Below, piece after piece: positions 11,526-50,840 of a stretch of DNA of 64,000 nucleotides. The stretch's first letter is position 1. Each line of letters opens with the position of its first letter. This stretch comes from Patescibacteria group bacterium. Its GTDB lineage: Bacteria; Patescibacteriota; Minisyncoccia; Phycocordibacterales; UBA1550. The translations under genes were made by a program, and so were the position numbers. The notes below the pieces were generated by a model. The model did no database searches and was not told the origin of the DNA. It worked only from the letters and a program-made list of their open reading frames with translations. The stretch covers positions 129,378 through 193,377 of the forward strand of contig JBBTWP010000003.1 of the NCBI GenBank assembly GCA_038062675.1. Reading direction: 5' to 3'.

Positions 11526-11538
11526 AACGTGGATTACT

Positions 11539-11713: not shown

Positions 11714-11761
11714 CCTATAGTAATAATAATAAGAATTTAAAGTAATAATTAATACAATACT

Positions 11762-33876: not shown

Positions 33877-33903
33877 AAAATTCCTTTAAAAATAAGCAGA
33901 AAA

Positions 33904-34299
33904 ATGCTAGAGTTTGGGGATAATATGGGAATTTTTGATATATTAAGCAGTGCGGCAAAGATAGCTAAGGAATCTGGTAAACTAGAATTACAAGGGGAGA
34001 TTTTGGGTGTTTATGAAAAACTTTTGGAGCAACAAAAGAAAATTTCGGATTTAGAAACTGAGAATCGAGAACTGAAACAACAACTTAAGACAAAAGAAGC
34101 TCTTGTTTTTGAAGGTAATGTTTATTGGATAAATGACAATGACAATGACAAAAAGAATGGACCTTTCTGTAAAATTTGTTATGAAAAAGAGAATAAGATG
34201 ATCACTTTAGATATTGGAAGCTTTGGTTTTGGTTCATCGAGAAATCTAGATTATTATCAATATCATTGCTTGGTATGTAAAAATTATTTTAAGAAATAA
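33904..34299 (+). CDS. Small coiled-coil protein with a C-terminal 2xCxxC Zn-ribbon. First gene of the R-M operon. The track ORF starts at 33853, inside the element.
   Basis: CKICYEK…CLVCKNYF. Abuts the mod start codon. Confidence 0.45.
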   Translation: MLEFGDNMGIFDILSSAAKIAKESGKLELQGEILGVYEKLLEQQKKISDLETENRELKQQLKTKEALVFEGNVYWINDNDNDKKNGPFCKICYEKENKMITLDIGSFGFGSSRNLDYYQYHCLVCKNYFKK

Positions 34300-34300
34300 A

Positions 34301-36400
34301 ATGAAACTCACCGACAACGAAAAACGAGATGTGATGAAGTATTTGGAGGCGGGGAAACCGCTTCCGGAGAAGTATCGGTTCTTGCTGTTTGGAGATGCGC
34401 AGGAGGTGGAGCTACTTTGGAATGGGAAGACGAATGAGGTGACGAATGTAGTGTTGCCGTTTCAGACTATTGAGCAGATAGATGAGCCGAGGAGCAATGA
34501 GAAGTTTGGTAATCAAGCCTCACTTTTTGATATGTCGGGTAGGCAGATAACTGGCTGGACTAATAAATTGATTTGGGGCGACAACAAGCTCATTCTCTCG
34601 TCGCTCAAAAATGGTCCGATGCGAAAAGAGATAGAAGCGCAGGGCGGTTTGAAATTGATTTACATCGACCCGCCGTTTGATGTGGGCGCGGATTTTTCTA
34701 TGGATATTACGATCGGTGAAGGCGAGGATGGTGAAAGTTTTACTAAAAAACCGTCGGTGATAGAAGAAATCGCCTACCGTGATACTTGGGGCAAGGGCGC
34801 GGACAGCTTCATTGCGATGATTTATGAGCGTTTGAAATTGATGCATGATTTGCTTGCGGAGGATGGGAGTATTTATGTGCATTGTGATTGGCGGGTAAAT
34901 AGTCACATGAGACTGGTTCTTGATGAGGTTTTCGGGAGGGATAACTTTATTAGTGAAATAATTTGGTATTACCAGAATGGCGGAGGGCGTTCGAAGTCTT
35001 CATTAAGCAGACAGCATCAAACCGTACTCTGTTATAAAAAAGGAGATAATTACCTATATAATTCTGTAGATATGGCAGTTCCATACAAGGAGACAAGTAT
35101 GTATTCTAAATATGGAATCACTAGTGAGGCAGACAAGAAGTATAGTGCATCTGAGGGTGGAAAAAATATGGATGATGTTTGGGTTATAGATTTAATTAAT
35201 CCATCTGCAAAGGAAAGGACTGGATACCCTACACAAAAACCCGAGAACTTTATTGAAAATATCATTAAGGCATCTTCAAACGAAGGCGACCTCGTTGCTG
35301 ATTTCTTCTGTGGTTCGGGCACCACGCTTGCTGTTGCGGAAAAACTTGGCAGAAAATGGATTGGTTCTGATTTGGGGAAATTTGGTATACATACATCGCG
35401 CAAGCGATTGATTGGTGTACAGCGTGAACTCAAAAAGGCGGGCAAGGATTTTCGCGCATTTGAGATTTTGAATGTGGGCAGGTACGAGCGCGAGAACTTC
35501 CTTGCGGTCAATGACGACCTGCGCGCGGAGGAAAAAGCAAAGCAGGCAGAGCGAAAAGAAAAAGAGTTTGTGAAGCTCATCATTTCGGCGTATAAAGCGG
35601 AACCAATCTCGTCTTTTGAGACGATGATAGCAAAGAAGCGCGACAGATTGGTCGCGATCGGACCTATCAATGCGCCTGTTTCAGGGAAATTCATCGAGCG
35701 TATCATCAAGGAATGCGGAGAGAACAACATTACCAAAGTGGATGTCCTCGGTTTTGATTGGGAGATGGGCTTTGACCGCCATGAGTTTGGCAATAGCGGT
35801 ATCGATATTGCGCTCAAGGTCATTCCTAAAGAAGTGTTTGATAAACGCGCGGTGGAAAGAGGACAGGTGAAGTTTTATGATGTGGCGTTTATTGAGGCGA
35901 AGCCAATTATTGCAGGCAGGGGGAATATCAAGGAGCTTTCCATTGAGCTTGCCGACTTTTCTGTTTTTTACAATCAAGATGACTCGGGTGAGATAGCAGA
36001 GGCGCTTCGCCCTGGGAGCTCCAAGGTGGTGGTAGAAAACGGGCAGGTGATAAAGCTCAGCAAAGATAAAGTGACGGAGGCGGTGACGCGAGAGATTTTG
36101 ACGAAAAAATGGAGTGACTGGATAGACTACTGGGCGGTGGATTATGATTTTGCGGACAGAAAAGAGATAATCAAAGTCGTAGAAGATGGCGAGGAAAAAG
36201 AGGTGTGGACAGGCGACTACATTTTCGACAACGAGTGGCAGAGTTTTCGTACAAAAAGAGCCTTTCGAAGTGGTAAATATCAAGATATCGAGCTCGTCTC
36301 TGCGCCAAAGGAGATGCAAAAAGGGACTTACAAAGTGGCGGTAAAGGTCGTGGACATTTTCGGGAATGATACAACGAGGGTGGTGGAGGTTAAGATATAA
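34301..36400 (+). CDS. mod: Beta-class N6-adenine/N4-cytosine DNA methyltransferase with the layout of a Type III R-M Mod subunit.
   Basis: Motif IV IYIDPPF precedes motif I FFCGSGTT (beta-class order). Res partner downstream. Confidence 0.8.
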   Translation: MKLTDNEKRDVMKYLEAGKPLPEKYRFLLFGDAQEVELLWNGKTNEVTNVVLPFQTIEQIDEPRSNEKFGNQASLFDMSGRQITGWTNKLIWGDNKLILSSLKNGPMRKEIEAQGGLKLIYIDPPFDVGADFSMDITIGEGEDGESFTKKPSVIEEIAYRDTWGKGADSFIAMIYERLKLMHDLLAEDGSIYVHCDWRVNSHMRLVLDEVFGRDNFISEIIWYYQNGGGRSKSSLSRQHQTVLCYKKGDNYLYNSVDMAVPYKETSMYSKYGITSEADKKYSASEGGKNMDDVWVIDLINPSAKERTGYPTQKPENFIENIIKASSNEGDLVADFFCGSGTTLAVAEKLGRKWIGSDLGKFGIHTSRKRLIGVQRELKKAGKDFRAFEILNVGRYERENFLAVNDDLRAEEKAKQAERKEKEFVKLIISAYKAEPISSFETMIAKKRDRLVAIGPINAPVSGKFIERIIKECGENNITKVDVLGFDWEMGFDRHEFGNSGIDIALKVIPKEVFDKRAVERGQVKFYDVAFIEAKPIIAGRGNIKELSIELADFSVFYNQDDSGEIAEALRPGSSKVVVENGQVIKLSKDKVTEAVTREILTKKWSDWIDYWAVDYDFADRKEIIKVVEDGEEKEVWTGDYIFDNEWQSFRTKRAFRSGKYQDIELVSAPKEMQKGTYKVAVKVVDIFGNDTTRVVEVKI

Positions 36401-36402
36401 AA

Positions 36403-38019
36403 ATGAAAACTTCAATCGAACAATTAGATAGTTGGCTACAAAATCAAGAGGGTTTGAATCTTGAGTTTAAAAAAGCAGAAAATAGTTTTAGCAATACTGA
36501 GCTTTTTAATTACTGCAGTGCGTTGTCTAATATGGGCGGTGGAAAGTTAATTTTCGGCATTGAGCCCAAAGAACACAAAGTTGTAGGGACTAACCTGTAT
36601 TGTGGTACTTTCAATATTATCCCGAATCAGATTTTTCAAAAGCTCGGTGTCCGTGTTGACATAGAAGAAATAGAGCACCCTGATGGCAGAGTTTTAATTT
36701 TTCACATACTGGATCATTACATCGGGAAGCCAATAAAATCAAATGGAACCTACTGGATGCGGTCAGGGGAATCGCTTACGCCTATGGACGAACAAACTCT
36801 TAGGAATAAACTTAATCAACATGAGCAAGATTTTTCGGCTTCAGTTGCCACTGGAGTCACTTTTTCTGATTTAGACAACGAGGCAATTTCTGTTTTGCGA
36901 AATATTCTCATAAAAAATAACAAGAAGACACTCACTGACCTAAGTGATACGAAATTGCTTACGGCCCTTGAGCTGACGACAGAGAAGGGTGTGACTTTTG
37001 CAGGGCTTATTTTACTCTGTAAGAAAGAAAAGATTGATGAATTGCTTCCTTGCTCAGAAATTATTTTTGAATGGCGACAGGAGGAAAAAATCAGTCATGA
37101 TTTTCGCAAAGAATGGAGGGAATCATTTTTGAAAATATACGATGACATATGGAAAACAATTAGCGATAGGAATAGTCGCATTCCAATTCAAGAAGGGTTA
37201 ATACAAAGCGAGATCCTTGCGTTCAATGAAAAAGCCATAAGAGAGGCACTTTTAAATGCAGTCACCCATAGAGACTATTCTGTCCAATCGCAATCCGTGT
37301 TCATTAAAGCAGATTCTAAAAATTTAATAGTGATTAGTCCGGGCGGGTTTCTTCCTGGCATAACACCAGACAATGTAATAGATAAACAAGCATGGAGAAA
37401 TCGCAGACTTGCGGAAGTCTTTCAAAAATTAGGGCTTGTTGAACGGGCAGGTCAGGGGATGAACCAAATTTTTGAAACCACTATTCGTGAAGGGAAAGGA
37501 CTCCCTGATTTGTCAAAATCAGATGACTTCCAAGTTGTGTTAGATATGCCAGCGAGAGTAAAAGATAAAGACTTCATCTTGTTTTTGGAAAAAATTTCTC
37601 ACGAAAGACAGACAATTTTTTCTTTTGAAGAAATATACGAACTAGAATTATTGAGAGAGAATAAGGTTGTTAATAATCTAAAAAATAAGAATAAGTTTTT
37701 AGAATTAGGTATTATTGAGAAAATTAACAAAACTAGTGGTACAAAATATATTTTATCTCACAAATATTATAGGTATGAAAATAAGCCAGGTGTTTATACG
37801 AGAATAAAAGGGTTAACGAGAGAACATAAGAAAGAATTGATTTTGAAACATATAGAAAGAGAAGGTAGTGGAAAGAAAAAAGATTTTAGGGATGCATTCC
37901 CAGACTTGAAAGTAAGTGATATTTCTAATTTTCTTCAAGAATTAAAAGACGAAGGAAAGATTCAACGAAAAGGTTCAGATAGGGCAGGATATTGGGTGCT
38001 TGGAGATAGTCCGAATTAG
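36403..38019 (+). CDS. AlbA_2 (Schlafen-like) N-terminal domain plus HATPase_c_4 C-terminal domain protein (the so-called RecG-like putative transcriptional regulator), located between mod and res.
   Basis: LEFKKAENSF…NMGGGKLIFGIEP (AlbA_2). ALLNAVTHRDYS…NRRLAEVF…ERAGQGMNQI (HATPase_c_4). Confidence 0.65.
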   Translation: MKTSIEQLDSWLQNQEGLNLEFKKAENSFSNTELFNYCSALSNMGGGKLIFGIEPKEHKVVGTNLYCGTFNIIPNQIFQKLGVRVDIEEIEHPDGRVLIFHILDHYIGKPIKSNGTYWMRSGESLTPMDEQTLRNKLNQHEQDFSASVATGVTFSDLDNEAISVLRNILIKNNKKTLTDLSDTKLLTALELTTEKGVTFAGLILLCKKEKIDELLPCSEIIFEWRQEEKISHDFRKEWRESFLKIYDDIWKTISDRNSRIPIQEGLIQSEILAFNEKAIREALLNAVTHRDYSVQSQSVFIKADSKNLIVISPGGFLPGITPDNVIDKQAWRNRRLAEVFQKLGLVERAGQGMNQIFETTIREGKGLPDLSKSDDFQVVLDMPARVKDKDFILFLEKISHERQTIFSFEEIYELELLRENKVVNNLKNKNKFLELGIIEKINKTSGTKYILSHKYYRYENKPGVYTRIKGLTREHKKELILKHIEREGSGKKKDFRDAFPDLKVSDISNFLQELKDEGKIQRKGSDRAGYWVLGDSPN

Positions 38020-38102
38020 TAGATTCCGAATGTATTTAGTAGAAAAAATGACAAAAAATGACAAAAAATAAGGGTGTGAATAAGTAGTAAATCAAATAGT
38101 TT

Positions 38103-40805
38103 ATGGCCCTACACAAAAATTTCCCAAAAGACCCATACGCGATTTTAGACCCCGAGATTAGGTGGTTTCCTGCTGACGAGGATTTGCGCGAGAAGGGTTT
38201 TGATAAGCTTATTCCACCGCTTGTGGCTGATTTGCGCAAGAAAGTGAAGGAGTGGCGGGATATGCAGTACGAGGGCGCAAGCGACACATCGAAAGCGCTC
38301 CTGAACTGGTGGTTTAAAGAAGAGCATGTTATATACAATGCAGATGGATCGTCGTTTAACTTTCGTTACTATTTTGCACAAAGGGAAGCACTGGAGACGG
38401 CGGTGTGGCTCTATGAGGTGGCGAAAGTGAAGGATAAGCATGATCTCATCCGCTACAATTCTACCGGCGTTCTGAGTGCGCAGATGTTCCCCGAGGAGTG
38501 GCTTCGCTTGGTGATTAAAATGGCGACAGGTGCCGGCAAGACAAAGGTGATGAGCCTTGTGGTTGCGTGGGCGTATTTTCATAAAAAATACGAGGCAGAT
38601 TCGAATCTCGCAAAGAATTTTCTTTTGATAACGCCGAATGTTATTGTTTTTGAAAGAATTAAAAATGATTTTGAAGGTTTGAAGATATTTTTTAGCGACC
38701 CTGTTTTACCTGACAATGGTTATCAAGGGCAAAACTGGCAGGATGATTTTCAGGTCACGCTTCACTTACAGGATGACTTGCGAAATGTTTCTGACACAGG
38801 TAACATATTTTTGACGAACATTCACAGAGTATTTGAGAGTGATGTTCGTGTTGCAAGTCCTGACGACGAAGACACAACAGAGTATTACCTTGGGAATAAA
38901 CCTGTAGCAAAAACGAATGATTCAACGGTTGATTTGGGGATGATTGTGCGTGATATTGATGAGCTCATTATTATTAATGACGAGGCACATCATGTAAGAC
39001 CAAAGACGGCTTGGTATAAATCAATCGAGGATATACATAACAAATTGAAAGCAAAGGGCTCAAAGCTCTCTCTCCATATAGACGTGACCGCTACCCCAAA
39101 AGATGACGATGGTTCTATGTTTGTTCAAGTTGTATCAGACTATCCTTTGGTAGAAGCAATTCATCAAAATATAGTAAAAATACCGGTGATGCCCGACGAG
39201 GCGAGCCGTGCAAAACTGAAAGAAAATCAAAGTATAAAATTTAGTGAAAAATACAGGGACTACATCAATCTTGGCGTAGAAGAATGGCGTAAAACCTATG
39301 AAGAATTAAAGCAGATGAATAAAAAATCGATTCTTTTTATTATGACCGACGACACAAAGAATTGTGATGAAGTGTCAGAATACATTCAGGCAAGTTTCGT
39401 GGACTTAAAAGGTGCGGTTCTGACCATTCATACTAACAAGAGCGGGGATATTTCCGAAAGCGTGACGGGGAAGAATAAAGAAGAGCTGGATAAACTGAGG
39501 AAGCAGGCGAACGAAATAGACAGCATGGAAAGTCCGTTCAAAGTGATTATTTCTGTGATGATGCTCAAGGAGGGTTGGGATGTTAAGAATGTTACGACTA
39601 TTGTCGGGCTGAAGCCTTTTACTGCTGAAAATAAAATTTTACCAGAGCAAGCATTAGGAAGAGGTTTAAGGAGGATGTTTTTTGGAAAAGATGCTGAAGA
39701 AAAAGTAAGTGTTATTGGAACACAGGCTTTTATGGATTTCGTGGCGTCGATTAAGAGCGAGGGGGTTGTTCTTGAGAAAAGGGCAATGGGGGAGGGGACA
39801 AAGCCGATCGCACCAATGGTTATTGAGGTAGACAAAGAAAACCCAAAGAAAGATATCGAGAGGTTGGATATTGAGGTTCCTGTGATGTCCCCGAGAATTC
39901 AAAGAGAGTACAAAAACTTAGGAGTACTCGATGTTGCCACTTTTGGAAATGTGAAAGTTCTGGTAAAAACTTTTTCTGAGGAAGAAAAAAGGCAGATCGT
40001 GTTTAAGGAAGTTATCAGTGAAAAAATAAGTCATACGGTTGATTTGACTGGAGAAATTTCCTCTGACTACCAAAGAGTGGTCGGCTTCTTTGCTCAAGCG
40101 ATAATGAGAGAGCTAAGAATGTTTAGTGGTTACGATATTTTGTTTGGCAAGGTTAAGGAATTTATCGAAAAACAGATGTTTGAACAGATGGTAGATATAT
40201 CAGACCTCAATATCTTGGCAAATTTGTCCGAGGTGGAATATGCAAGACTCATTAAGGATTCTTTCAAAAAGGCTATCAATGATCTCACTATAGAGGACAG
40301 TGGTGATACGGAGATTAAAAATTATATTAAAATTAGCGATGCACGCCCATTTGTGGTGAATGATAAATCGTATTTGATATCAAAAAAATCTGTTTTCAAT
40401 AGAATTGTTGGTGACAGTAACTTTGAATTGGAATTTGCTGATTTCCTCGAGGGTTGCGAGGATGTAATTTCGTACGCGAAAAACTTTCAGAACAAAGAAG
40501 CAAGTGCTCTACGGGTTGAGTATAAAAACTCTGAGGGAATGATAGCTAATTATTACCCAGATTTTTTTGTTAAGAAAGATGACAAGACGGTATATATTGT
40601 TGAAACAAAAGGGAGAGAGGAAGCTGACGACAAATTGAAGTTTGAAAGGTTGCAAAAATGGTGTGTGGATGTGAACAACAGACAAACCAAAGTAGTATAT
40701 AAAGCTCTCTACCTAAAACAGGAGGAATGGAACAAGGATAAACTTAGGAATTTTGATGAGGTTGTGAGGGTATTTGGTTCGACCAGTCACAAGAATGGTC
40801 AATAG
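38103..40805 (+). CDS. res: Type III restriction enzyme Res subunit (SF2 helicase plus C-terminal PD-(D/E)xK nuclease).
   Basis: Walker A MATGAGKTKV. DEAH box INDEAHHV. C-terminal YYPDFFVKKDDKTVYIVETKGRE. Confidence 0.8.
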   Translation: MALHKNFPKDPYAILDPEIRWFPADEDLREKGFDKLIPPLVADLRKKVKEWRDMQYEGASDTSKALLNWWFKEEHVIYNADGSSFNFRYYFAQREALETAVWLYEVAKVKDKHDLIRYNSTGVLSAQMFPEEWLRLVIKMATGAGKTKVMSLVVAWAYFHKKYEADSNLAKNFLLITPNVIVFERIKNDFEGLKIFFSDPVLPDNGYQGQNWQDDFQVTLHLQDDLRNVSDTGNIFLTNIHRVFESDVRVASPDDEDTTEYYLGNKPVAKTNDSTVDLGMIVRDIDELIIINDEAHHVRPKTAWYKSIEDIHNKLKAKGSKLSLHIDVTATPKDDDGSMFVQVVSDYPLVEAIHQNIVKIPVMPDEASRAKLKENQSIKFSEKYRDYINLGVEEWRKTYEELKQMNKKSILFIMTDDTKNCDEVSEYIQASFVDLKGAVLTIHTNKSGDISESVTGKNKEELDKLRKQANEIDSMESPFKVIISVMMLKEGWDVKNVTTIVGLKPFTAENKILPEQALGRGLRRMFFGKDAEEKVSVIGTQAFMDFVASIKSEGVVLEKRAMGEGTKPIAPMVIEVDKENPKKDIERLDIEVPVMSPRIQREYKNLGVLDVATFGNVKVLVKTFSEEEKRQIVFKEVISEKISHTVDLTGEISSDYQRVVGFFAQAIMRELRMFSGYDILFGKVKEFIEKQMFEQMVDISDLNILANLSEVEYARLIKDSFKKAINDLTIEDSGDTEIKNYIKISDARPFVVNDKSYLISKKSVFNRIVGDSNFELEFADFLEGCEDVISYAKNFQNKEASALRVEYKNSEGMIANYYPDFFVKKDDKTVYIVETKGREEADDKLKFERLQKWCVDVNNRQTKVVYKALYLKQEEWNKDKLRNFDEVVRVFGSTSHKNGQ

Positions 40806-41168: not shown

Positions 41169-42854
41169 TTATCCCTCCTTTTCCAAATCCACGACGCGCT
41201 CAACTTCATCAAACGAGGTCGAACCGGCGAGGATTTTCTCGATACCGTCTTCACGCATCGTGAGGAGACCTTGTTTTTCGGCGATGGCGCGGATTTCGCG
41301 CTCGCTCGGAATGCCGTCGAGAAGTGCTTCGATTTCGGCATTCATAATCACGGCTTCAAAAATACCCACACGCCCTTTGTAGCCAGTGTTGTTGCAAATG
41401 GGGCACCCAACAGCGCGCCAGACTTTTTCTGTTTGCACGACGGTGCCTGTTTTTGCGGTGATTCTCGCAGAGAGATCGGCAATAATCTTTTTCTCGCGCT
41501 CGTTAGGGACATCTTCTTTTTTGCAGGCGACACAAAGCTTGCGCGCAAGACGTTGTGCAAGGGCGACGGTAAGCGCCGACCCGATAATCTTTGGTGTAAC
41601 ACCAATATCAATCAAGCGGGGGATGGCGCCGGCGGCGGTGTTGGTGTGGAGTGTGGAAAACACCATGTGTCCCGTGAGTGCGGCATTGATGGCTATTTTT
41701 GCCGTTTCGCCATCGCGGATTTCGCCGACCATGATCACGTCGGGGTCTTGGCGGAGGGCAGCGCGGAGACCATCTAAAAAGGTGTAGCCCTTTTCTGCTT
41801 CGATTTGTGTTTGGGAGACGCCCTTCAAGTGATATTCAATTGGATCCTCAATCGTCATCATCTTTATTTCCGGCGAGTAAATTTTCTTCATGAACGAATA
41901 CAGCGTCGTTGTTTTTCCTGAGCCAGTAGGGCCGGTATTCAAAATCATGCCGTGTGGTTTTGCGATTTCCTTTTCCATGACGGCAAGTAAGCGCGGGCTC
42001 ATCCCCAAGTCTTCCAGTGTGACGTTCAAAGATTGCGGATTCAAAAGGCGCATAACCACGCCTTCTCCATAGGCACTCGGAATGACCGACACGCGGATTT
42101 CGATTTCTAGATCGGAAACTTTAATACTGAAACGCCCATCTTGGCTTTCGGAGCCGAGGTTGAGTTTCATGCCAGCGATGAGTTTCAGGCGCGAGCTGAA
42201 CAGGCGGTATATCGTATGAGGGAGTGTCGCCACTTCGTGGAGGACGCCATCGATACGATAGCGGATACGAATGATGTCCGCTTCGGGTTCAATGTGAATG
42301 TCTGAGGCGTGAATGCCGATAGCGCCCGCAAGAATAACGGTAAAAATTTTTGAAATGTAGCGCGCATCTTTTGAGTCAACCGTGGTCTTGAGAACCTCTT
42401 CTACGTTGGCAAGTGTTTTAAAACGCGCCACCAAAATCTCGATTCCTTCGCCAGAAATGTCGAGCACTCCCGCTTCTGACTTTGTGGCACCGGAAATTTC
42501 TTTGTATCGCTCCCATGCTTTTTCTAGACTGACATGCGAGGCGAGATAGGGCTCGATTTGGTATCCGCGCTCTACAAGCCCTGCCAGCACTTCTTTGGTG
42601 TGCTCGCCAGTGGGGGAGAAGAGTGCCACTTTAAGTTTTTTATTTGAAAGTTCAAATGGTCCGACAAGGGCAGCACGCGCGTCAGCCTCTTTTATGATGC
42701 CGACCGCACTGATGTCGATGGGGATGCCGTTTAGGTCGATGTACGGAATCTTGTATTTGCTCGACATTGCTTGAAGGAAATCCTCCTCTTCTTTCTTGCG
42801 AAGGTCGTTCAGTTTCTCGTCGCCGGCAATGTCTTTGAAATTAAGCATAATCAA
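41169..42854 (-). CDS. pilB: Type IV pilus assembly ATPase PilB / GspE family.
   Basis: Walker A LNTGPTGSGKTTTL. The Asp box, His box and CxxC tetracysteine motif are present. Confidence 0.9.
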   Translation of the reverse strand: MIMLNFKDIAGDEKLNDLRKKEEEDFLQAMSSKYKIPYIDLNGIPIDISAVGIIKEADARAALVGPFELSNKKLKVALFSPTGEHTKEVLAGLVERGYQIEPYLASHVSLEKAWERYKEISGATKSEAGVLDISGEGIEILVARFKTLANVEEVLKTTVDSKDARYISKIFTVILAGAIGIHASDIHIEPEADIIRIRYRIDGVLHEVATLPHTIYRLFSSRLKLIAGMKLNLGSESQDGRFSIKVSDLEIEIRVSVIPSAYGEGVVMRLLNPQSLNVTLEDLGMSPRLLAVMEKEIAKPHGMILNTGPTGSGKTTTLYSFMKKIYSPEIKMMTIEDPIEYHLKGVSQTQIEAEKGYTFLDGLRAALRQDPDVIMVGEIRDGETAKIAINAALTGHMVFSTLHTNTAAGAIPRLIDIGVTPKIIGSALTVALAQRLARKLCVACKKEDVPNEREKKIIADLSARITAKTGTVVQTEKVWRAVGCPICNNTGYKGRVGIFEAVIMNAEIEALLDGIPSEREIRAIAEKQGLLTMREDGIEKILAGSTSFDEVERVVDLEKEG

Positions 42855-45647: not shown

Positions 45648-46418
45648 ATGAAAAAAATGATAACCAGTATGAAGTTTTGGGGGGTATCGGCAACGCTTGC
45701 AGTTGTTATTTTCCCTATGGTTTCGTGGGCGGCAATTGTGGTTTCGCCAGCTTCCGCAGGCAGTATTTCCGAGACGGGAGCGTCCCTTACTGCGCACATT
45801 GATAATCCGTGGAAGACCACCACGGTGTGGTTTGAGTGGGGGGAAACTCCTGAGCTTGGCTCTGTCGCCGGCATGTCTTCAATATGGCATCAAGGTTTCT
45901 CTTCGGGGTATCTTTCGGGATTGAAACCCGGAACTAAATATTATTATCGTGCGGTTGCCACCGAGGGCGGTGAACGCAAAGAGTCCTCTGTGGCGTCATT
46001 TACGACACCTGCAGAGCCTGTGCCTGTTGTGAAAGTTGCGCCGACTCCCGCACCTGCTCCCAAGGCGGAGCCCGTGGCTGAAAAAGTGGTTGCTCAAAAA
46101 CCAGCACCAAAATCAACAAAAGATATAACCACAAAAACAGTTGCCAAGGCGGAAACCAGCACATCTTCTATTGTATGGAGAGATAACAGTAGCATGGCGT
46201 CAGTATTTGGTATTGGAGAGGGAATTTTCCCTGATACTCTTGTGGGGTGGGTTGCGCTCATCATCACACTCATGGCAATCGTGCTCATTGTCCGCATGAT
46301 TTTTGATTCAGTTGAAAAGCGTGGGCATGTGAATGCGCGTGAAGATAAAGAGGGGAAAGAAGGAGAGGTGGAGAAGCATCCACACGCACTCGAGGTTCCT
46401 CGCCCACCAAAGGCGTAA
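45648..46418 (+). CDS. Secreted protein with one Fn3-like WFEWG…YYYRAVA domain and a C-terminal TM anchor.
   Basis: Signal peptide. The domain is homologous to the repeats in 47733..50795. IFPDTLVGW-TM motif. Confidence 0.5.
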   Translation: MKKMITSMKFWGVSATLAVVIFPMVSWAAIVVSPASAGSISETGASLTAHIDNPWKTTTVWFEWGETPELGSVAGMSSIWHQGFSSGYLSGLKPGTKYYYRAVATEGGERKESSVASFTTPAEPVPVVKVAPTPAPAPKAEPVAEKVVAQKPAPKSTKDITTKTVAKAETSTSSIVWRDNSSMASVFGIGEGIFPDTLVGWVALIITLMAIVLIVRMIFDSVEKRGHVNAREDKEGKEGEVEKHPHALEVPRPPKA

Positions 46419-46628
46419 AAGCCTTTAAATATACGACAGATTTATGCAAGAAAGTCAGCCTCGAAAGGGTTGACTTTTTCGTATAGTGTGATACAATAGA
46501 TAAAGACAAGAAATTCACCTTGAAATATAAGGAGGAGGAGAATGCTCCCTTCAGACATTAATGAAGACGGCACACTAAAAACCAAAGTTCAACAAAGTTA
46601 TACTCTTGATGAATCTAATGGAGGTTTT

Positions 46629-47588
46629 ATGAAAAAGTATGGTTGGTGGATGTTGCTCGTTTTGCTGGTTGCCGGTGGGTTAGTATATTGGCTATGGCCT
46701 GTTACTGAGGAAGCGCCAAAGTCGGGGACAATTAACCGTCCTGCGGACATTCTGCTGTCGGATGAGATTGAGCGTCTTAAAAGTGAGAACGCTGCGCTCA
46801 AACAGCAACAGGAACAGGAAGCAAAGCCCAAGGAACTTACCTCTGAAGAAATCGCGGCGAAAAAGAGAAAGGCACAAGAGCAACGGGATCGTCGCAAAGC
46901 TGAACAAGCCAAGCGAGAAGTTGCCGAGCTCAACAGAAAGGAGAAGGCAGATCAAGCACGGCGAGAGCTTTTGGCAGCAGAAGAACGAGCGAAGAAAGCC
47001 TGCGGTGTTCTGGGGTATACCCCAAGAGCCGGAGGAAAATTTTCTTGCAATCAGCCGCCAGTAGAAAAAGTTGTCACGCCGGTTTCACCAAAACAAAGTG
47101 TTGCCTGCGGAGATCGATTGGTGTGGACTGAGGTTGCACAGAATGACTGGAAATGTCTTCCTGTTGTTTTGCAACCAGCGCCAGTTGCCTTTGTGGCGCC
47201 GACTCCTCCACAAGTAGCACCTCCCGTCGATGATTGTCGCGGAAAAAAGGTGCAACCTGACGGAAGTGTTTGGTGTTTAGAGGAGGTTCCTGTTCAAAAG
47301 AAAGAACATCCCGGCTTGCTTGCAGGTGCGGGAAGTGCTCTTTTGGGGGGAGTAATTGGTTATGTTATTGACCCAAGTGGTGGGGGTGTCCGTGGAGCAC
47401 TCGCAGGAGGGCTCTGCGGTTGGGGATTCAATCGAGACGGAGACTCCGGAAGTGCCGTCAGTTGCGGTGTCGTCGGCGGTGTCCTTGGTGGTCTTGTTAA
47501 CAAGGGTGATGGTGGCGGAGGTTCTTCGGGCGCGGGGCAGCCAGTAGAGTCTCCTGTTCCTAGTGGTCCCGTGGAATCTCCTATATAG
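46629..47588 (+). CDS. Membrane protein with a Lys/Glu-rich coiled coil and a C-terminal glycine-zipper region.
   Basis: RBS GGAGG. TM WWMLLVLLVAGGLVYWLW. GxxxG-rich tail. Confidence 0.45.
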   Translation: MKKYGWWMLLVLLVAGGLVYWLWPVTEEAPKSGTINRPADILLSDEIERLKSENAALKQQQEQEAKPKELTSEEIAAKKRKAQEQRDRRKAEQAKREVAELNRKEKADQARRELLAAEERAKKACGVLGYTPRAGGKFSCNQPPVEKVVTPVSPKQSVACGDRLVWTEVAQNDWKCLPVVLQPAPVAFVAPTPPQVAPPVDDCRGKKVQPDGSVWCLEEVPVQKKEHPGLLAGAGSALLGGVIGYVIDPSGGGVRGALAGGLCGWGFNRDGDSGSAVSCGVVGGVLGGLVNKGDGGGGSSGAGQPVESPVPSGPVESPI

Positions 47589-47732
47589 CTCTTTGAAGTT
47601 TAACTTTTGGATGTGTGTCATAGCAATATGGCCCACATCCGCATTTTCAAGTTTTTGACCTATTTTTTGGTCGAGGGTTTGAAAATGCGCGTAATATCGT
47701 GTATTGTGCGCACAAGAGTAAAACGTAATTAT

Positions 47733-50700
47733 ATGAATACCATTATGAAAAAAATACAAACAATCCTTTTAGCTTTCGCACTTTTGGTAGTGCCGACGGC
47801 TTCTTTTGCGGCGGCGCTTAATAATGACGCGCAAGATTTTAAGACATTGCGCGCGGTTAATATTACAAAAAATCCCGGATGTGTCGCTTGTCGTTCGACC
47901 GCGATAACCGCAAATCCGGGGGATGTTCTTGCGTTTTCAATTTACTATCACAATACTGGTCCTGACACAGCAAACAATGTGCGCGTGTGGTTGACTCCAC
48001 AAATAAGTCCATCAGGAACAACTCATTCGTTTGTTGCCAAAGTAAGCGCTGATAATGCTTCGGCGGTGAACGGTACTACTGTTGTCACTCTTTCAGGGAA
48101 TCAAACAATAGATTTTCTTCAGGGTTCAGTAATCTGGTGGCCAAACCAATCAGTAACGACTTCAACTGCGTTTCCTTCTGGACAAACAGGAGCGGAGATT
48201 TTTACGAGTGAGGGCTTGAATCTTGGCTCTATTGCTTCGGGATGGGGGACGCAAGGGGCGGTGAATATGCGTTTTCAGGTTGCTAACACAGGAACGGGTG
48301 GAGGCACACAACTTTCTGTCCCAGTTGTTGCCACTCATGTCGCAACGAATGTTTTGACAGGTTCCGCGACACTCAACGGATATGTTGACCCAAAAGGCAC
48401 AACCGACACGGTGCGCTGGTTTGAATGGGGCGCTGCAACGTCGCTCAATAATACGACATATCAAGTAAGTCAGGGTGGGAGCGCTTCAGATTTTTCTGCG
48501 AGCATCTCCGGTCTTACACAAAATAGTGTTTATTCCTACCGTGCTGTTGCACGCAATGCGCAAGGGACAGTATATGGCAGTGTGATGACGCTTACCACTA
48601 CACGCGTGAGTGAGCCAGTGTACGCACCTCTCGTGTCCACACGTTCTGCCTCAGGTGTTCTCTATGAGACTGCAACACTCAACGGTTTTGTTGATCCAAA
48701 AGGTTCAGCCGATACGGTGCGTTGGTTTGAGTGGGGAAGTTCATCTTCTCTCAATAATTCAACCGCTCGTGTAAATCACGGAAGCTCAGCTTCGAATTTT
48801 TCTGCAAACATTTCTGGACTTACTCAAAACACTACCTACTACTACCGTGCAGTTGCGCAAAATGCGCAGGGGACGGTCAACGGAACTACGATGAGTTTTA
48901 CGACAGAATACTTCAACATACCAGATTACCCCTCAGAAATTCTTGTTTCTACGCGTTCAGCGTCGAATGTTTCCCATACCTCTGCAACACTCAATGGCTA
49001 TGTTGATCCAAGTGACTCGACCGATACTGTGCGCTGGTTTGAATGGGGCAGTTCATCATCCATGAACAACACTACCTACCAAGTAAATCAGGGTAGTAGT
49101 GCTTCGAATTTTTCTGCAAACATTTCTGGACTTACTCAAAACACTACCTACTACTACCGTGCAGTTGCGCGAAATGCACAGGGGACGGTGTATGGCAGCG
49201 TGCTTTCGTTTACGACGAGCTACTCTGGAGGCGGAGGTTACTCAATCCCTCTTGTGTACACACGAACAGCTACAAACATCACCTATGACTTTGCTATCTT
49301 GAATGGACATGTTGACCCAAAAGGCACGACCGACACAATGCGCTGGTTTGAGTGGGGGAGTTCTTCGTACATGAACAACACTACTTCGCGTACCTATCAG
49401 AGCAATAATGCATCAGATTTTTCCGCAAGTATTTCAGGATTGGCACAAAACACCACCTACTACTATCGTGCTGTTGCACAAAATTCTCAAGGAACCGTTT
49501 ATGGGGATATGATGAGTTTTTCAACGAACTACACAGGCGGTGGCAATCAAACAACGTTTGTTCCAGTAGTTTCTACACGTAATGCCGAAGTTTCAGGCGA
49601 CTTTGCTGTCTTGAATGGATATGTCGACCCCAATGGCTCAAATGACACAACTCGCTGGTTCGAGTGGGGTGGTTCACAATCACTGGGAAGCCAGACGAGT
49701 CGTCTTGCTCAAGGAAATGTTGCATCGAATTTCAGCGCAACGCTTTCAAGCCTTGTTCCTAACACCACTTATTATTATCGTGCGATGGCGCGCAATTCAC
49801 AGGGTACGGTGTATGGCAGTGTGCTTTCGTTTACGACAAATAGTTACGGCGGCGGATATACCGGAGCACAAATTGCACCAACCGTGTCAACAACACTTGC
49901 AACTGAGATTGCGGCAAACAGTGCACGCTTGAATTCCCTCGTGTTTTCAACAGGGAACTATCCATCAAACGCGTGGTTTGAATGGGGTACTAACACGGCG
50001 CTTGGCAACAAAACGCAAACCGTGAATGTTGGCTCGCTTCCTTCGGTGCGTCATACCGACGTGATTACCGGACTTGTGCCAAGTGTGACGTACTACTATC
50101 GTGCCGTTGCAGAAAATCCCTATGGAAAGAGTTACGGTTCAATTTATAGTTTTGTGGTGAACCAAACTATTAACACTCCTCCTCAAACACCAACAACAGT
50201 GGTGATAACTCAACCTGCGCGACCAACACCTGTTCGTCCGCAAGTTGTGGTCGTAAGTCCGGGTGCGGGAACAGAGTCATTGGTTGAATTGCTACTTGAT
50301 GGTGGCGCCGATACGATTTCTTCAAACGAAGAGCGAACCTATCGCATCTCGTGGAAAAACACCAGCAAGCAGACATTGAAACGCGTTGTCTTGCGCGCCA
50401 TTATCCCTGCTCAAATGAATTTCAAGAGCGCAAGTACTGGCTCTTTCTCGAGCGAGGGAAACATTGTTACTGTCGATGCAGGGACGTTGACTCCGGGTGC
50501 GATTGGCGAAGCGACGTTTGTCGCGACCACAGAGCGTGGACTTGAGTCAGGAACACTTTTGGTAACAACTGTTAATCTTGTATATACCGATGCGAAGGGT
50601 GGACAGGGAGATGCAGTTGCGTATGTAACCCATCGTGTGGAAGCACGAGACGGTGGACAGGGCGCAAGCCCGTTTGGTGCCGGGTCATTCCTTCCGACAA

Positions 50701-50795
50701 CACTCTTTGAGTGGATGATTCTCGTAATCCTTATGCTCCTCCTTGTGCTTCTCGGCAACCATCTTTACGGACGATTTTCAGGACCAAAACACTAA
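47733..50795 (+). CDS. Large surface protein: signal peptide, DUF11-like N-terminal domain, six tandem Fn3-like repeats (WFEWG…ISGLTQNTTYYYRAVA…QGTVYG), second DUF11-like domain, C-terminal TM anchor.
   Basis: Repeats are readable in the translation. The track ORF starts at 47607, but a signal peptide follows the M at 47733/47744. Confidence 0.6.
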   Translation: MNTIMKKIQTILLAFALLVVPTASFAAALNNDAQDFKTLRAVNITKNPGCVACRSTAITANPGDVLAFSIYYHNTGPDTANNVRVWLTPQISPSGTTHSFVAKVSADNASAVNGTTVVTLSGNQTIDFLQGSVIWWPNQSVTTSTAFPSGQTGAEIFTSEGLNLGSIASGWGTQGAVNMRFQVANTGTGGGTQLSVPVVATHVATNVLTGSATLNGYVDPKGTTDTVRWFEWGAATSLNNTTYQVSQGGSASDFSASISGLTQNSVYSYRAVARNAQGTVYGSVMTLTTTRVSEPVYAPLVSTRSASGVLYETATLNGFVDPKGSADTVRWFEWGSSSSLNNSTARVNHGSSASNFSANISGLTQNTTYYYRAVAQNAQGTVNGTTMSFTTEYFNIPDYPSEILVSTRSASNVSHTSATLNGYVDPSDSTDTVRWFEWGSSSSMNNTTYQVNQGSSASNFSANISGLTQNTTYYYRAVARNAQGTVYGSVLSFTTSYSGGGGYSIPLVYTRTATNITYDFAILNGHVDPKGTTDTMRWFEWGSSSYMNNTTSRTYQSNNASDFSASISGLAQNTTYYYRAVAQNSQGTVYGDMMSFSTNYTGGGNQTTFVPVVSTRNAEVSGDFAVLNGYVDPNGSNDTTRWFEWGGSQSLGSQTSRLAQGNVASNFSATLSSLVPNTTYYYRAMARNSQGTVYGSVLSFTTNSYGGGYTGAQIAPTVSTTLATEIAANSARLNSLVFSTGNYPSNAWFEWGTNTALGNKTQTVNVGSLPSVRHTDVITGLVPSVTYYYRAVAENPYGKSYGSIYSFVVNQTINTPPQTPTTVVITQPARPTPVRPQVVVVSPGAGTESLVELLLDGGADTISSNEERTYRISWKNTSKQTLKRVVLRAIIPAQMNFKSASTGSFSSEGNIVTVDAGTLTPGAIGEATFVATTERGLESGTLLVTTVNLVYTDAKGGQGDAVAYVTHRVEARDGGQGASPFGAGSFLPTTLFEWMILVILMLLLVLLGNHLYGRFSGPKH
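48300..50160 (+). repeat. About 310-bp period intragenic tandem DNA repeats (6 copies) encoding the Fn3-like domains.
   Basis: Near-identical 30-40-nt stretches recur, e.g. caaaacactacctactactaccgtgcagttgcgc at 48829 and again at 49138. Confidence 0.7.
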
Positions 50796-50804: not shown

Positions 50805-50840
50805 TAAAAAACCGCCTCATATATGAGGCGGTTTTTTTTG
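50805..50840 (+). terminator. Intrinsic terminator.
   Basis: aaccgcctcat-atatgaggcggtttttttt. Confidence 0.75.

What the first reader, a model, noticed from the sequence alone, without database searches (positions are those of the whole stretch)
45648..50795. Fn3-like repeat surface proteins with near-identical intragenic DNA repeats and a shared C-terminal motif
The roughly 1020-aa protein carries six tandem approximately 103-aa repeats. Some are 90% or more identical at the DNA level, which suggests recent expansion, recombination or phase-variation potential. A neighbouring 256-aa protein carries one copy of the same domain. Both end with (F)(L/P)P(D/T)TL..W immediately before a TM helix and a basic tail. 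That is reminiscent of a sorting or anchoring signal but is not a canonical LPxTG.
Basis: seen in the sequence. Interest (0 to 1): 0.5.

Follow-up and report, generated by a model that had tools for sequence, protein, structure and literature searches.

The report
Parcubacterial surface-protein pair with conserved membrane-anchor tail
Two neighbouring genes of an uncultured groundwater Parcubacterium encode stalk-like cell-surface proteins built from fibronectin-type repeats, and both end in a conserved, uncatalogued 45-residue membrane-anchor module that over a thousand related protein families share and that is probably a permanent anchor rather than a sortase signal.

Summary
The genes are real: a 256-aa protein (45648-46418) and a 1020-aa protein (47733-50795). 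Each has a Sec signal peptide and Fn3 domains of the PhoD_N/Pur_ac_phosph_N type. The large one carries six tandem units flanked by DUF11/CLIPPER-like Ig domains.

The claim of 90% or more DNA identity fails for whole units. The best pair, R2/R3, is 74% identical, and Tandem Repeats Finder reports nothing. R2 and R3 do share one exact 70-nt tract, probably a gene-conversion patch, which also breaks independent assemblies.

The shared tail is real. Consensus: LGA[SN]xFGxGxF-[LF]-P-x-[TSN]-[LIF]-x-[GE]-W, then 14 hydrophobic residues (227 of 240 tails), then a polar residue and x-L-Y. A tail profile finds 1328 clusters (50% identity), always at the C-terminus. Named carriers are Parcubacteria (two records titled Saccharibacteria). 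No Pfam or NCBIfam sorting-domain model matches it.

Evidence against a sortase signal:
- The residue after the T is never G/A/N/D.
- T is replaced by S or N in about 28% of tails.
- AlphaFold2 places P-x-T as the N-cap of the membrane helix.
- The helix and the cytoplasmic residues are conserved.
- Cytoplasmic tails are often long.
- No sortase gene or LPXTG-type protein occurs in about 410 kb examined.

Best reading: a conserved, syntenic pair of membrane-anchored stalk proteins. A new sorting signal is not excluded.

The parts
45648..46418 (+). Small tail-bearing surface protein (256 aa). Layout: signal peptide aa 1-28, one Fn3 domain aa 30-120, a Pro/Ala/Lys-rich disordered linker aa 121-183, the tail module aa 184-225, and a 41-aa cytoplasmic tail.
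   Evidence: ORF. AlphaFold2 with alignment A2 (beta-sandwich pLDDT 80-93; residues 126-197 disordered; helix from L198). Foldseek hits to Fn3 domains. Identical protein P0121 in NCBI. Orthologue alignment.
46197..46322 (+). Tail module of the small protein: ASVFGIGEGIFPDTLVGW, then 14 hydrophobic residues, then RMIFDSVEKR. The core motif IFPDTLVGW is at 46224-46250.
   Evidence: Coordinates. P195, T197, L198, G200, W201, S221 and E223 are invariant across 8 orthologues that share 32-84% identity. Syntenic small proteins in other genomes carry [FL]P[STN]TLIGW...MIYExxEKRKK.
46542..47588 (+). Intervening gene (348 aa). It has an N-terminal membrane helix, a Lys/Glu-rich coiled-coil region, Cys-containing segments and a Gly-rich C-terminus. 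It has no tail module. Its function is unknown and it is poorly conserved in syntenic loci.
   Evidence: ORF. Only sub-threshold, low-complexity-type Pfam and NCBIfam hits. Only a weak tblastn match, in L006.
47733..50795 (+). Large tail-bearing surface protein (1020 aa). Layout: signal peptide aa 1-27, an N-terminal DUF11-like region, six Fn3 units, a Pro/Thr linker, a C-terminal DUF11/CLIPPER-like Ig domain, and the tail module.
   Evidence: ORF. It equals P0001, which NCBI names 'fibronectin type III domain-containing protein [Patescibacteria group bacterium]'. Pfam and NCBIfam domains.
47814..48320 (+). N-terminal region after the signal peptide, weakly DUF11/DUF7619-like. It is a possible tip domain.
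   Evidence: TIGR01451 B_ant_repeat scores 29.1 bits against a cut-off of 24. DUF7619 gives 4.6e-5, below its cut-off.
48324..50171 (+). Six tandem Fn3 units, R1-R6 (each about 97 aa plus a short linker; period 306-321 nt).
   Evidence: Pur_ac_phosph_N at 6.4e-26 with 5 matched stretches. Protein identity is 54-76% among R1-R5 and 37-40% between R6 and the others.
48789..48858 (+). Copy 1 (in R2) of the exact 70-nt tract. It encodes ASNFSANISGLTQNTTYYYRAVA.
   Evidence: Logan contigs L002 and L003 end at 48818, exactly 30 nt (k-1 for k=31) into the tract.
49101..49170 (+). Copy 2 (in R3) of the exact 70-nt tract.
   Evidence: The 100-N scaffold gap of L001 falls between window positions 49155 and 49156, inside this copy.
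50160..50267 (+). Pro/Thr-rich linker between R6 and the C-terminal Ig domain.
   Evidence: Read from the sequence.
50268..50651 (+). C-terminal DUF11/CLIPPER-like beta-sandwich.
   Evidence: Pfam DUF11 scores 27.5 bits against a cut-off of 24.6. The AlphaFold2 model has pLDDT above 90 for residues 6-124. Foldseek matches the BcpA pilin, CLIPPER 9IFR (TM-score 0.71 normalised by the target length) and TRAP subunits.
50661..50792 (+). Tail module of the large protein: GASPFGAGSFLPTTLFEW, then MILVILMLLLVLLG, then NHLYGRFSGPKH. The core motif FLPTTLFEW is at 50688-50714 and the 14 hydrophobic residues are at 50715-50756.
   Evidence: The tail is conserved in 85 of 120 listed homologues. The AlphaFold2 helix starts at L, directly after P-T-T, and runs through NHLYGRF.
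50812..50839 (+). Intrinsic-terminator-like hairpin (CCGCCTCA-TATA-TGAGGCGG followed by T8) just after the large gene.
   Evidence: Read directly from the sequence. It was not tested with the scan tool.

Best explanation
The region encodes a conserved, syntenic pair of cell-surface proteins of a Yonathbacteria-like Parcubacterium (Patescibacteria/CPR).

Export and layout (inferred from sequence and models). Both proteins are exported through Sec by an N-terminal signal peptide. Both remain tethered to the cytoplasmic membrane as type I (bitopic) proteins. The ectodomain reaches out through the wall. In the large protein it is a roughly 1000-residue stalk of one DUF11-like region, six Fn3 units and one DUF11/CLIPPER-like Ig domain, the same design as fibrillar adhesins. 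In the small protein it is one Fn3 domain on a long Pro/Ala/Lys-rich linker.

The shared motif. It is the exposed end of a 45-residue, lineage-specific anchor module: a Gly-rich flexible collar (GAS-FG-G-F), a P-x-T/S helix N-cap at the outer membrane interface, an interfacial Trp, a hydrophobic run of fixed length (14 residues after W), and a conserved cytoplasmic polar-x-L-Y. I infer that the module stays in the mature protein and docks in a sequence-specific way in the membrane, either with itself, with the partner protein of the pair, or with another membrane component.

The repeat array. It changes on evolutionary time by gain and loss of whole in-frame units and by gene conversion, which alters stalk length and not expression.

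What is shown and what is inferred. Shown here: domain content, conservation, modularity, synteny, predicted topology, and the absence of known sorting-domain matches. Inferred: surface location, permanence of the anchor, and an adhesive or host-contact role.
For: Domains:
- Pfam Pur_ac_phosph_N 6e-26, PhoD_N 3e-12, fn3 9e-8, and DUF11 at 27.5 bits above its cut-off.
- Fn3 fold. CLIPPER/CnaA-like fold followed by a helix.
- DUF11/CLIPPER is a stalk domain of fibrillar adhesins (PMC12617251).

Tail conservation:
- 85 of 120 listed homologues carry the tail.
- 8 small-protein orthologues have P, T, L, G and W invariant.
- The tail profile finds 1328 clusters at E<=1e-3 and 108 at E<=1e-10, always at the C-terminus.

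Modularity:
- Of 113 representatives, 83 have a DUF11-like domain directly upstream of the tail. The other 30 have Fn3 or TIG followed by a low-complexity linker.

Evidence for a retained anchor:
- AlphaFold2 starts the helix right after P-x-T in both proteins.
- W is followed by exactly 14 hydrophobic residues in 227 of 240 tails.
- The cytoplasmic tail has a median of 15 aa. 47% are longer than 15 aa and 10% longer than 30 aa.
- Cytoplasmic residues are conserved: GNHLYGRF in large proteins and MI[FY][DE]SxE[KR]R in small ones, across different genomes.

Pair and synteny:
- A small tail protein lies 1-2 kb upstream of the large one in 14 of 21 related loci, next to TsaE-PolA in the loci where gene calls were read (L005-L007), with a PilB-like ATPase on the other side.

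Repeat dynamics:
- Orthologues carry 1-6 units and wider homologues up to 12.
- R5 and R6 have orthologous counterparts (92% and 71%), whereas R1-R3 are closest to each other.
- The 70-nt exact tract.
Against: - No experiment or proteomic datum shows that the C-terminus is retained.
- The tripartite layout (motif, membrane helix, charged tail), its C-terminal position and its attachment to several different upstream contexts are also what a dedicated sorting signal looks like.
- The strong conservation of P-x-T/S and of the Gly-rich collar exceeds what a simple membrane anchor needs.
- Only about 64 kb of this genome and about 350 kb of related loci could be examined, so a processing enzyme elsewhere in the genome cannot be excluded.
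- The adhesive function is inferred from architecture only. No ligand-binding tip domain was identified.
Confidence: 0.58

Rival explanations
1. The tail is a genuine C-terminal protein-sorting signal (an 'FLPxTL-CTERM'), specific to Parcubacteria. After Sec export, a dedicated membrane-associated transpeptidase or protease recognises F-Φ-P-x-T/S at the start of the helix and removes the helix and cytoplasmic tail. It then attaches the protein covalently to peptidoglycan, a lipid or an S-layer component, as sortase, exosortase, archaeosortase and rhombosortase do.
For: - Tripartite architecture at the C-terminus.
- An invariant Pro and a strongly conserved T/S two residues later (T 70%, S 22%).
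- The module is joined to at least three different upstream contexts: DUF11, an Fn3 linker and a TIG linker.
- At least two carriers per genome, lying side by side.
- 1328 clusters carry it.
- The motif sits at the membrane interface, as in PEP-CTERM, PGF-CTERM and GlyGly-CTERM signals (from my own knowledge of those families).
- Sortases occur in more than half of CPR genomes, patchily outside Microgenomates (PMC6744442).
- A wall-spanning Pro-rich linker precedes the tail in the small protein.
Against: - The residue after T/S is never G, A, N or D. It is L 79%, I 12%, F 5%, V 3%. This fits no known sortase class (motif list in PMC12617251).
- No LPXTG, IPTL-CTERM, PEP-CTERM or other CTERM model matches 41 tails, even at E<=10. 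The best hits are noise: JDVT-CTERM 0.74 and MYXO-CTERM 2.6.
- The membrane helix and cytoplasmic residues are conserved, and the cytoplasmic tails are long (up to 83 aa; the small protein has 41 aa with invariant S and E). This is unexpected for a discarded peptide.
- Some homologues replace P-x-T with FPMMLLGW or LFGNWLF yet keep the rest of the tail.
- No sortase-like ORF and no canonical sortase-type tail occur in the 64-kb window plus about 350 kb of related loci.
Confidence: 0.27
2. The repeat array is a contingency locus. Near-identical intragenic repeats recombine frequently, so that strains or cells switch copy number or expression (phase or antigenic variation).
For: - One exact 70-nt tract is shared by R2 and R3, long enough for homologous recombination.
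- Independent assemblies break at it.
- Copy number differs among orthologues.
- R1-R3 appear homogenised within the lineage.
Against: - Units are only 50-74% identical at the DNA level, and TRF finds no array.
- All periods are multiples of 3, so unequal exchange would change length and not switch the gene off.
- The four other assemblies are identical to the window wherever they overlap the array. No copy-number variant was seen.
- The only indel (TTT to TT at 48030 in L001) lies outside the repeats and comes from a coverage-5 scaffold.
Confidence: 0.07
3. The pair is an accessory of the type IV pilus or type II secretion-like machinery. The conserved membrane helix docks these proteins onto that apparatus, given the conserved neighbourhood with a PilB-like ATPase.
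For: A T2SSE/MshEN ATPase (41169-42854, minus strand) lies a few kb upstream in the window and in L005, L006 and L007.
Against: - The ATPase is transcribed divergently, and unrelated genes lie between it and the pair (an M23 peptidase and hypothetical proteins).
- The same block also keeps TsaE, PolA and RuvABC. The pattern therefore looks like general conservation of gene order among close relatives rather than a functional operon.
- There are no pilin-like N-termini in either protein.
Confidence: 0.06

Closest known systems
[quoted passage not shown]
   Same: Signal peptide, a long stalk of tandem Ig/Fn3-type domains that includes DUF11/CLIPPER-like domains, a C-terminal attachment element, and variable repeat number among relatives.
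   Different: The anchor is not LPXTG and no sortase was found. By eye, the C-terminal DUF11 domain here lacks the Lys and Asp positions of the isopeptide triad. No recognisable adhesive tip domain is present. The host lineage is CPR, with an unknown envelope.
LPXTG sorting signal and sortase
   Same: A Pro-x-Thr core, followed by a hydrophobic helix and charged residues at the C-terminus of secreted multi-domain surface proteins. A Pro-rich wall-spanning linker lies upstream in the small protein.
   Different: P1' is always L, I, F or V and never G, A, N or D. Thr is Ser or Asn in about 28% of tails. The motif abuts the helix as its N-cap. The helix and cytoplasmic tail are conserved and often long. 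The NCBIfam models do not match. No sortase was found in the sequence available.
IPTL-CTERM sorting domain (TIGR04174; predicted, for example, on the Methylomirabilis S-layer protein, PMC8671808)
   Same: From my memory of the model, the signature is IPTLxxWG, then a helix, then basic residues. That is a Pro-Thr-Leu core with a Trp a few residues later at the start of the helix, which is the closest look-alike among catalogued CTERM domains.
   Different: The spacing differs by one residue (P-x-T-L-x-x-W here). The NCBIfam library gave no hit for 41 tails at E<=10. The taxonomic range is different. The cognate enzyme of IPTL-CTERM is itself unknown, as far as I know.
PEP-CTERM/exosortase, PGF-CTERM/archaeosortase A and GlyGly-CTERM/rhombosortase
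   Same: A short signature placed exactly at the outer end of a C-terminal membrane helix. The module is portable and lineage-restricted, and several proteins per genome carry it.
   Different: There is no HMM match. No exosortase, archaeosortase or rhomboid gene was seen nearby. Cytoplasmic tails are longer and conserved. The number of carriers per genome looks small (two in 64 kb).
Eukaryotic TRAP subunits and integrin calf domains (fold matches only)
   Same: An Ig-like beta-sandwich followed by a short linker and a single membrane helix. These are the top Foldseek matches to the C-terminal model. They illustrate the 'permanent bitopic anchor' architecture.
   Different: There is no sequence relationship. 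The resemblance is of architecture only.

Membership tests
Fn3-like domain of the PhoD_N / Pur_ac_phosph_N type | Match to the Pfam models above their curated cut-offs | tested here: met
   Large protein: PF16656 scores 91.2 bits (cut-off 30), PF16655 scores 47.4 (cut-off 30) and PF00041 scores 32.7 (cut-off 25). The small protein alone is below cut-off (23.3 bits).
Fn3-like domain of the PhoD_N / Pur_ac_phosph_N type | Fn3 beta-sandwich fold | tested here: met
   The AlphaFold2 model of the small protein has pLDDT 80-93 for aa 30-120. Foldseek finds 50 PDB hits at E<=1e-3, mostly FnIII domains.
DUF11 / CLIPPER (PF01345) | Match to the Pfam or TIGR01451 model above cut-off | tested here: met
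   PF01345 scores 27.5 bits against 24.6 at aa 858-944. TIGR01451 scores 29.1 against 24.
DUF11 / CLIPPER (PF01345) | CnaA-like Ig fold | tested here: met
   The AlphaFold2 model has pLDDT above 90. Foldseek matches 9IFR CLIPPER at E 1.8e-5 with a TM-score of 0.71 normalised by the target length, and the BcpA pilin at 5e-6.
DUF11 / CLIPPER (PF01345) | Lys-Asp-Asn intramolecular isopeptide triad | tested here: inconclusive
   By eye, the first strand (LVELLLDGG) has no Lys. The 'v.v.D.lP' position reads VLRAIIP, with no Asp. A more distant subfamily keeps K...IKDRIP. No structural or Isopeptor test was run.
LPXTG / sortase sorting signal | Pentapeptide of a known sortase class (LP.T[GAND], NP.TG, LA.TG, NPQTN, IP.TG, LP.GA) in the last 50 residues | tested here: not met
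   The sequences are LPTTL and FPDTL. Across 240 tails the residue after T/S is L, I, F or V in 100%. No canonical tail occurs among about 5000 stop-to-stop reading frames of 40 residues or more from the window and related loci.
LPXTG / sortase sorting signal | Match to the curated LPXTG anchor HMM | tested here: not met
   No NCBIfam or Pfam hit for the tails at E<=10.
LPXTG / sortase sorting signal | A sortase (PF04203, TLxTC active site) encoded in the genome | not testable with these tools
   None was found in the 64-kb window or in about 350 kb of related loci. The rest of the genome could not be fetched.
IPTL-CTERM and other catalogued CTERM sorting domains (PEP-, PGF-, GlyGly-, MYXO-, JDVT-, PGAP-CTERM) | Match to the NCBIfam/TIGRFAM model | tested here: not met
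   41 tails were scanned. The best hits were JDVT-CTERM at E 0.74 (1 tail), MYXO-CTERM at 2.6 (2 tails) and PGAP-CTERM at 6.4 (1 tail). IPTL-CTERM and PEP-CTERM gave no hits.
C-terminal sorting signals in general | The signal sits at the extreme C-terminus, with only a short basic cluster after the helix | tested here: inconclusive
   The module is always C-terminal. However, the cytoplasmic part has a median of 15 aa, 27% are longer than 20 aa and the maximum is 83 aa. Mean net charge of the first 10 residues is only +1.5.
C-terminal sorting signals in general | A cognate processing enzyme co-distributed with the signal | not testable with these tools
   This needs whole-genome phylogenetic profiling. 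Only flanks of up to 10 kb on each side could be read.
Phase-variable (contingency) repeat locus | Near-identical tandem repeats that allow frequent slippage or recombination, with copy-number polymorphism within populations | tested here: not met
   Unit DNA identity is 50-74%. TRF finds nothing. There is one 70-nt exact tract only. No variant copy number occurs among 5 assemblies.

The most novel reading that the evidence does not exclude
The 45-residue tail (GAS-FG-G-F-Φ-P-x-T/S-Φ-Φ-G/E-W, then 14 hydrophobic residues, then polar-x-L-Y) is a previously uncatalogued protein-sorting signal specific to Parcubacteria. An as-yet unidentified enzyme would process it. If so, this would be the first lineage-specific surface-anchoring system of CPR bacteria and a handle on how these episymbionts build their host-contact surface.
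Probability: 0.25. Interest if true: 0.65.

Novelty: new variant of a known kind. Interest (0 to 1): 0.4.

Why it matters
CPR/Patescibacteria are thought to live attached to other cells, yet how they display and anchor surface proteins is largely unknown. This work defines a compact, highly conserved C-terminal module that marks a large set of Parcubacterial surface proteins (1328 clusters at 50% identity) and that no curated library recognises.

- If it is a permanent anchor, it gives a simple sequence tag for cataloguing the surface proteome of these organisms. It also points to a conserved small-plus-large protein pair as a core envelope feature.
- If it is a processed sorting signal, it implies an undiscovered sorting enzyme.

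The repeat array itself is ordinary: diverged Fn3 units with occasional gene conversion. Its 70-nt exact tract is a practical warning that short-read assemblies may mis-count units here.

Tried and rejected
- Tandem Repeats Finder on 44-52 kb found nothing, because the units are too diverged.
- NCBIfam and Pfam scans of the two tails and of 41 tails for any catalogued sorting domain gave only noise.
It was repeated with the narrow GNHLYGRF subfamily (A4), which reaches only orthologues of the large protein.
- The search for homologous proteins with the tail profile returned only 3 hits. The word index was presumably swamped by Leu-rich candidates, so this search was wasted.
- The listing of cluster members on 10 diverse tail carriers gave almost no taxonomy, with one Nomurabacteria name.
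- The sortase hunt used the TLxTC-like motif over all ORFs of the window and 21 loci, plus Pfam on the four least implausible ORFs and on most window ORFs of 100 aa or more. Nothing was found.
- Single-linkage clustering of passenger regions to count independent families was uninformative, because shared Fn3/DUF11 domains link nearly everything. It was replaced by asking what lies directly upstream of the tail.
- I considered that the 1-nt deletion in L001 (TTT to TT at 48030) might be a phase-variation site. I rejected this because it is a 3-nt run in a coverage-5 scaffold.
- I considered that the window might simply be the L001 scaffold with its N-gap removed. This cannot be settled. The Logan contig ends show independently that the 70-nt tract has two left contexts.

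Full report
WHAT IS THERE

The flagged interval holds three plus-strand genes.
- A 256-aa ORF lies at 45648-46418.
- A 348-aa ORF lies at 46542-47588.
- A long ORF ends at 50795. Its biologically sensible start is the ATG at 47733 (1020 aa; an alternative ATG sits at 47745).

Exact copies of the small and large proteins are already in NCBI as 'MAG: fibronectin type III domain-containing protein [Patescibacteria group bacterium]' on a 198-kb contig. The same DNA occurs in Hainich aquifer (well H41) assemblies. Named relatives are Candidatus Yonathbacteria, Nomurabacteria, Paceibacterota, Minisyncoccia and 'Parcubacteria group'. The window also carries dnaA/dnaN, a class A PBP, YidC, a Gram-positive-type T4SS and a PilB-like ATPase. 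It is therefore chromosomal DNA of a Parcubacterium that makes peptidoglycan.

CHECKING THE OBSERVATION

Six tandem units are present: R1-R6 at 48324-50171, with spacing of 306-321 nt. Each carries the WFEWG and YYYRAVA signatures. Pfam identifies them as Fn3-like domains of the phosphatase N-terminal type (Pur_ac_phosph_N 6.4e-26, PhoD_N 2.8e-12, fn3 9e-8).

The small protein carries one such domain. AlphaFold2 models aa 30-120 as a confident beta-sandwich, and Foldseek returns FnIII domains.

The statement that some units are 90% or more identical in DNA is wrong for whole units.
- The best pair (R2/R3) is 74% identical, or 80% over 249 nt.
- Other pairs are 50-70% identical.
- Tandem Repeats Finder finds no array.

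There is, however, one exact 70-nt tract shared by R2 and R3 (48789-48858 = 49101-49170). It has identical codons for 23 residues, in units that otherwise differ at one position in four. That is the signature of a gene-conversion patch.

The tract is real and not an artefact of one assembler. Logan contigs L002 and L003, from runs ERR3858120 and ERR3858121, stop at 48818. That is exactly k-1 = 30 nt into the tract, where a k=31 graph must branch. An ENA scaffold has its 100-N gap inside the second copy. As a consequence, the number of units cannot be regarded as proven by short reads.

ARCHITECTURE OF THE LARGE PROTEIN

- Signal peptide, aa 1-27.
- An N-terminal region with weak DUF11/DUF7619 signals.
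- Six Fn3 units.
- A Pro/Thr linker.
- A DUF11 domain (27.5 bits against a cut-off of 24.6).
- The tail.

An AlphaFold2 model of the last 175 residues, built with 22 aligned homologues, has mean pLDDT 87. It shows a beta-sandwich, a 20-residue flexible segment and one long helix. Its closest solved folds include the BcpA pilin, the CLIPPER domain 9IFR and, as whole-chain look-alikes, the bitopic TRAP subunits. DUF11 was recently renamed CLIPPER and described as a stalk domain of fibrillar adhesins (PMC12617251). The overall design is therefore that of a fibrillar, stalk-like surface protein.

THE TAIL

Among the 120 best homologues of the large protein, 85 end in the same module. Eight orthologues of the small protein (32-84% identical) keep P, T, L, G and W invariant.

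A 50-position profile of 41 tails was searched against 1.84 billion cluster representatives. It found 1328 proteins at E<=1e-3 and 108 at E<=1e-10. The match was always at the C-terminus.

The consensus is LGA[SN]xFGxGxF-[LFV]-P-x-[T/S/N]-[L/I/F/V]-Φ-[G/E]-W, then 14 hydrophobic residues, then a polar residue, x, [LIV], Y. Over 240 tails:
- the residue two after Pro is T 70%, S 22%, N 6%;
- the next residue is L 79%, I 12%, F 5%, V 3%;
- W is followed by exactly 14 hydrophobic residues in 227 cases.

The module is portable. Of 113 representatives with enough upstream sequence, 83 have a DUF11-like domain directly in front of the tail. The other 30 have an Fn3 or TIG domain followed by a Ser/Thr/Asn/Pro-rich linker. 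The window's small protein belongs to the second type. No Pfam or NCBIfam model matches any of 41 tails beyond noise, including LPXTG, IPTL-CTERM, PEP-CTERM, MYXO-CTERM and the rest.

ANCHOR OR SORTING SIGNAL?

Several observations argue that the module is retained as a membrane anchor.
1. In both AlphaFold2 models the helix begins at the residue right after P-x-T. The motif therefore reads as a helix N-cap at the outer membrane interface, followed by an interfacial Trp.
2. The hydrophobic run has a fixed length, and the first cytoplasmic residues are conserved. Large proteins carry GNHLYGRF. Small proteins carry MI[FY][DE]SxE[KR]R(KK), seen again in unrelated genomes that were not used to build the profile. 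A peptide that is cut off and discarded would not be expected to keep these.
3. Cytoplasmic tails are longer than in classical signals: median 15 aa, 27% longer than 20, up to 83, and 41 in the small protein here.
4. The position after T/S is always a bulky hydrophobic residue. No described sortase class accepts that (motif list in PMC12617251). T itself is replaced in about 28% of tails.
5. Some homologues have lost P-x-T (FPMMLLGW, LFGNWLF) while keeping a similar helix.
6. No sortase-like ORF and no canonical LPXTG-type tail occur in the 64-kb window or in about 350 kb of related loci.

Other observations point the other way.
- The tripartite layout, the portability, the lineage restriction and the very strong conservation of Pro and of the Gly-rich collar are exactly what a dedicated sorting signal looks like.
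- Sortases do occur in many CPR genomes (PMC6744442).
- Most of this genome could not be inspected.

I therefore put about 0.58 on a permanent, sequence-specific membrane anchor and about 0.27 on a new processed sorting signal.

A CONSERVED PAIR

In 14 of the 21 related loci, a small tail-bearing protein of 240-280 aa lies 1-2 kb upstream of the large one. In the three loci whose gene calls were read (L005-L007), the block sits between a divergently transcribed PilB-like ATPase and TsaE-PolA. These loci come from Yonathbacteria, Nomurabacteria, Paceibacterota and other H41 bins. The 348-aa gene between the pair in this window is not conserved. The pairing suggests that the two proteins work together, possibly through their related helices. 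That is inference only.

REPEAT DYNAMICS

Orthologues carry 1-6 units and wider homologues up to 12. R5 and R6 have clear counterparts in the closest homologue (92% and 71% identity). R1-R3 are more similar to each other (69-76%) than to any unit elsewhere (60-67%).

The membrane-distal part of the array has therefore been duplicated or homogenised in this lineage, and the 70-nt tract is the freshest trace of that. All periods are multiples of three, and no copy-number variant was seen among five assemblies. This is slow stalk-length evolution, not phase variation.

COMPARISON WITH KNOWN SYSTEMS AND NOVELTY

The proteins are ordinary members of the Fn3/DUF11 surface-protein world and are already annotated as such. 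The tail works like the C-terminal anchors of Gram-positive adhesins. It looks most like IPTL-CTERM among catalogued sorting domains, though that comparison rests on my memory of the motif. It fails the membership tests for every catalogued family that could be run.

I class it as a new variant of a known kind: an uncatalogued, Parcubacteria-restricted C-terminal anchoring module. Interest is moderate at 0.4. It would rise if a cognate enzyme were found.

LIMITS

- There are no experimental data.
- The taxonomy of most tail carriers is unknown, because they come from unlabelled metagenome proteins.
- The two window tails were part of the profile. Independent support comes from proteins not in the profile.
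- The unit count depends on a short-read assembly across an exact repeat.

Noticed in passing
window 48789-48858 and 49101-49170; L001 6389-6488; ends of L002 and L003: The exact 70-nt tract coincides with every assembly break. Logan contigs end 30 nt into copy 1, and an ENA scaffold has its 100-N gap inside copy 2. In the window the two scaffold pieces abut with no gap and no overlap, so the unit count (6) could be under-called.
   Followed up: partly
window 48030 (L001 about 5264): The ENA scaffold L001 lacks one T (TTT to TT). This frameshifts the large gene there and splits its gene call into 119-aa and 474-aa pieces. It is a coverage-5 scaffold, so this is probably an error and not a switch.
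   Followed up: partly
window 42774-42831 (L001 8-65): Nine mismatches between L001 and the window cluster in the first 65 nt of the scaffold, at the 5' end of the PilB-like ATPase gene (minus strand). Elsewhere identity is 100%. This is either contig-end noise or a strain variant.
   Followed up: no
window 10107-12862: dnaA-like (472 aa) and dnaN-like (366 aa) ORFs, inferred from position and length but not scanned. They sit where G+C drops to 0.35-0.38 and where cumulative GC skew turns from falling to rising (minimum near 10 kb). This is probably the replication origin.
   Followed up: no
window 436-8266: A Gram-positive-type conjugation/T4SS-like cluster: a PrgI-family protein (436-927), a TraG/VirB4-like P-loop ATPase (1600-3426), a T4SS pilin domain protein (4648-5556) and several secreted or membrane hypothetical proteins.
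   Followed up: partly
window 33853-40805: A type III restriction-modification-like block: an N6_N4 methylase (34301-36400) and a ResIII helicase/nuclease (38103-40805). A Schlafen AlbA_2 plus HATPase_c_4 gene (36403-38019) is inserted between them. The region has low G+C (0.38-0.42) and unusually strong GC skew (0.23-0.28), which suggests an acquired defence island.
   Followed up: no
window 24319-25375: An HTH_3 plus SocA/Panacea antitoxin-domain protein (24319-24993) overlaps a 145-aa ORF without Pfam hits (24938-25375). This is a candidate toxin-antitoxin pair.
   Followed up: no
window 31078-32397 (minus strand): An S-adenosylmethionine synthetase of the PF01941 type (E 4.6e-102). That is the family usually associated with archaea, not the bacterial MetK.
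   Followed up: no
window 46542-47588: The gene between the two tail proteins encodes a 348-aa protein with an N-terminal membrane helix, a Lys/Glu-rich coiled coil, paired Cys motifs and a Gly-rich hydrophobic C-terminus. It has no family assignment and is barely conserved in syntenic loci.
   Followed up: partly
homologues P0005, P0007, P0046, P0056, P0057, P0076, P0084, P0108, P0113: More distant large homologues (for example from Wolfebacteria) end in a different conserved tail, (L/F)(F/L)GNW(L/I)F or LFGxWWFSLLLLL, followed by a helix and then FF(K/R)K...VDVL(R/K). This may be a second, related anchor class that lacks the P-x-T.
   Followed up: no
L012 and L025: Two GTDB genome records that carry this Parcubacteria-type tail protein are titled 'uncultured Candidatus Saccharibacteria bacterium'. 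This is probably automatic mislabelling of the MAGs.
   Followed up: no
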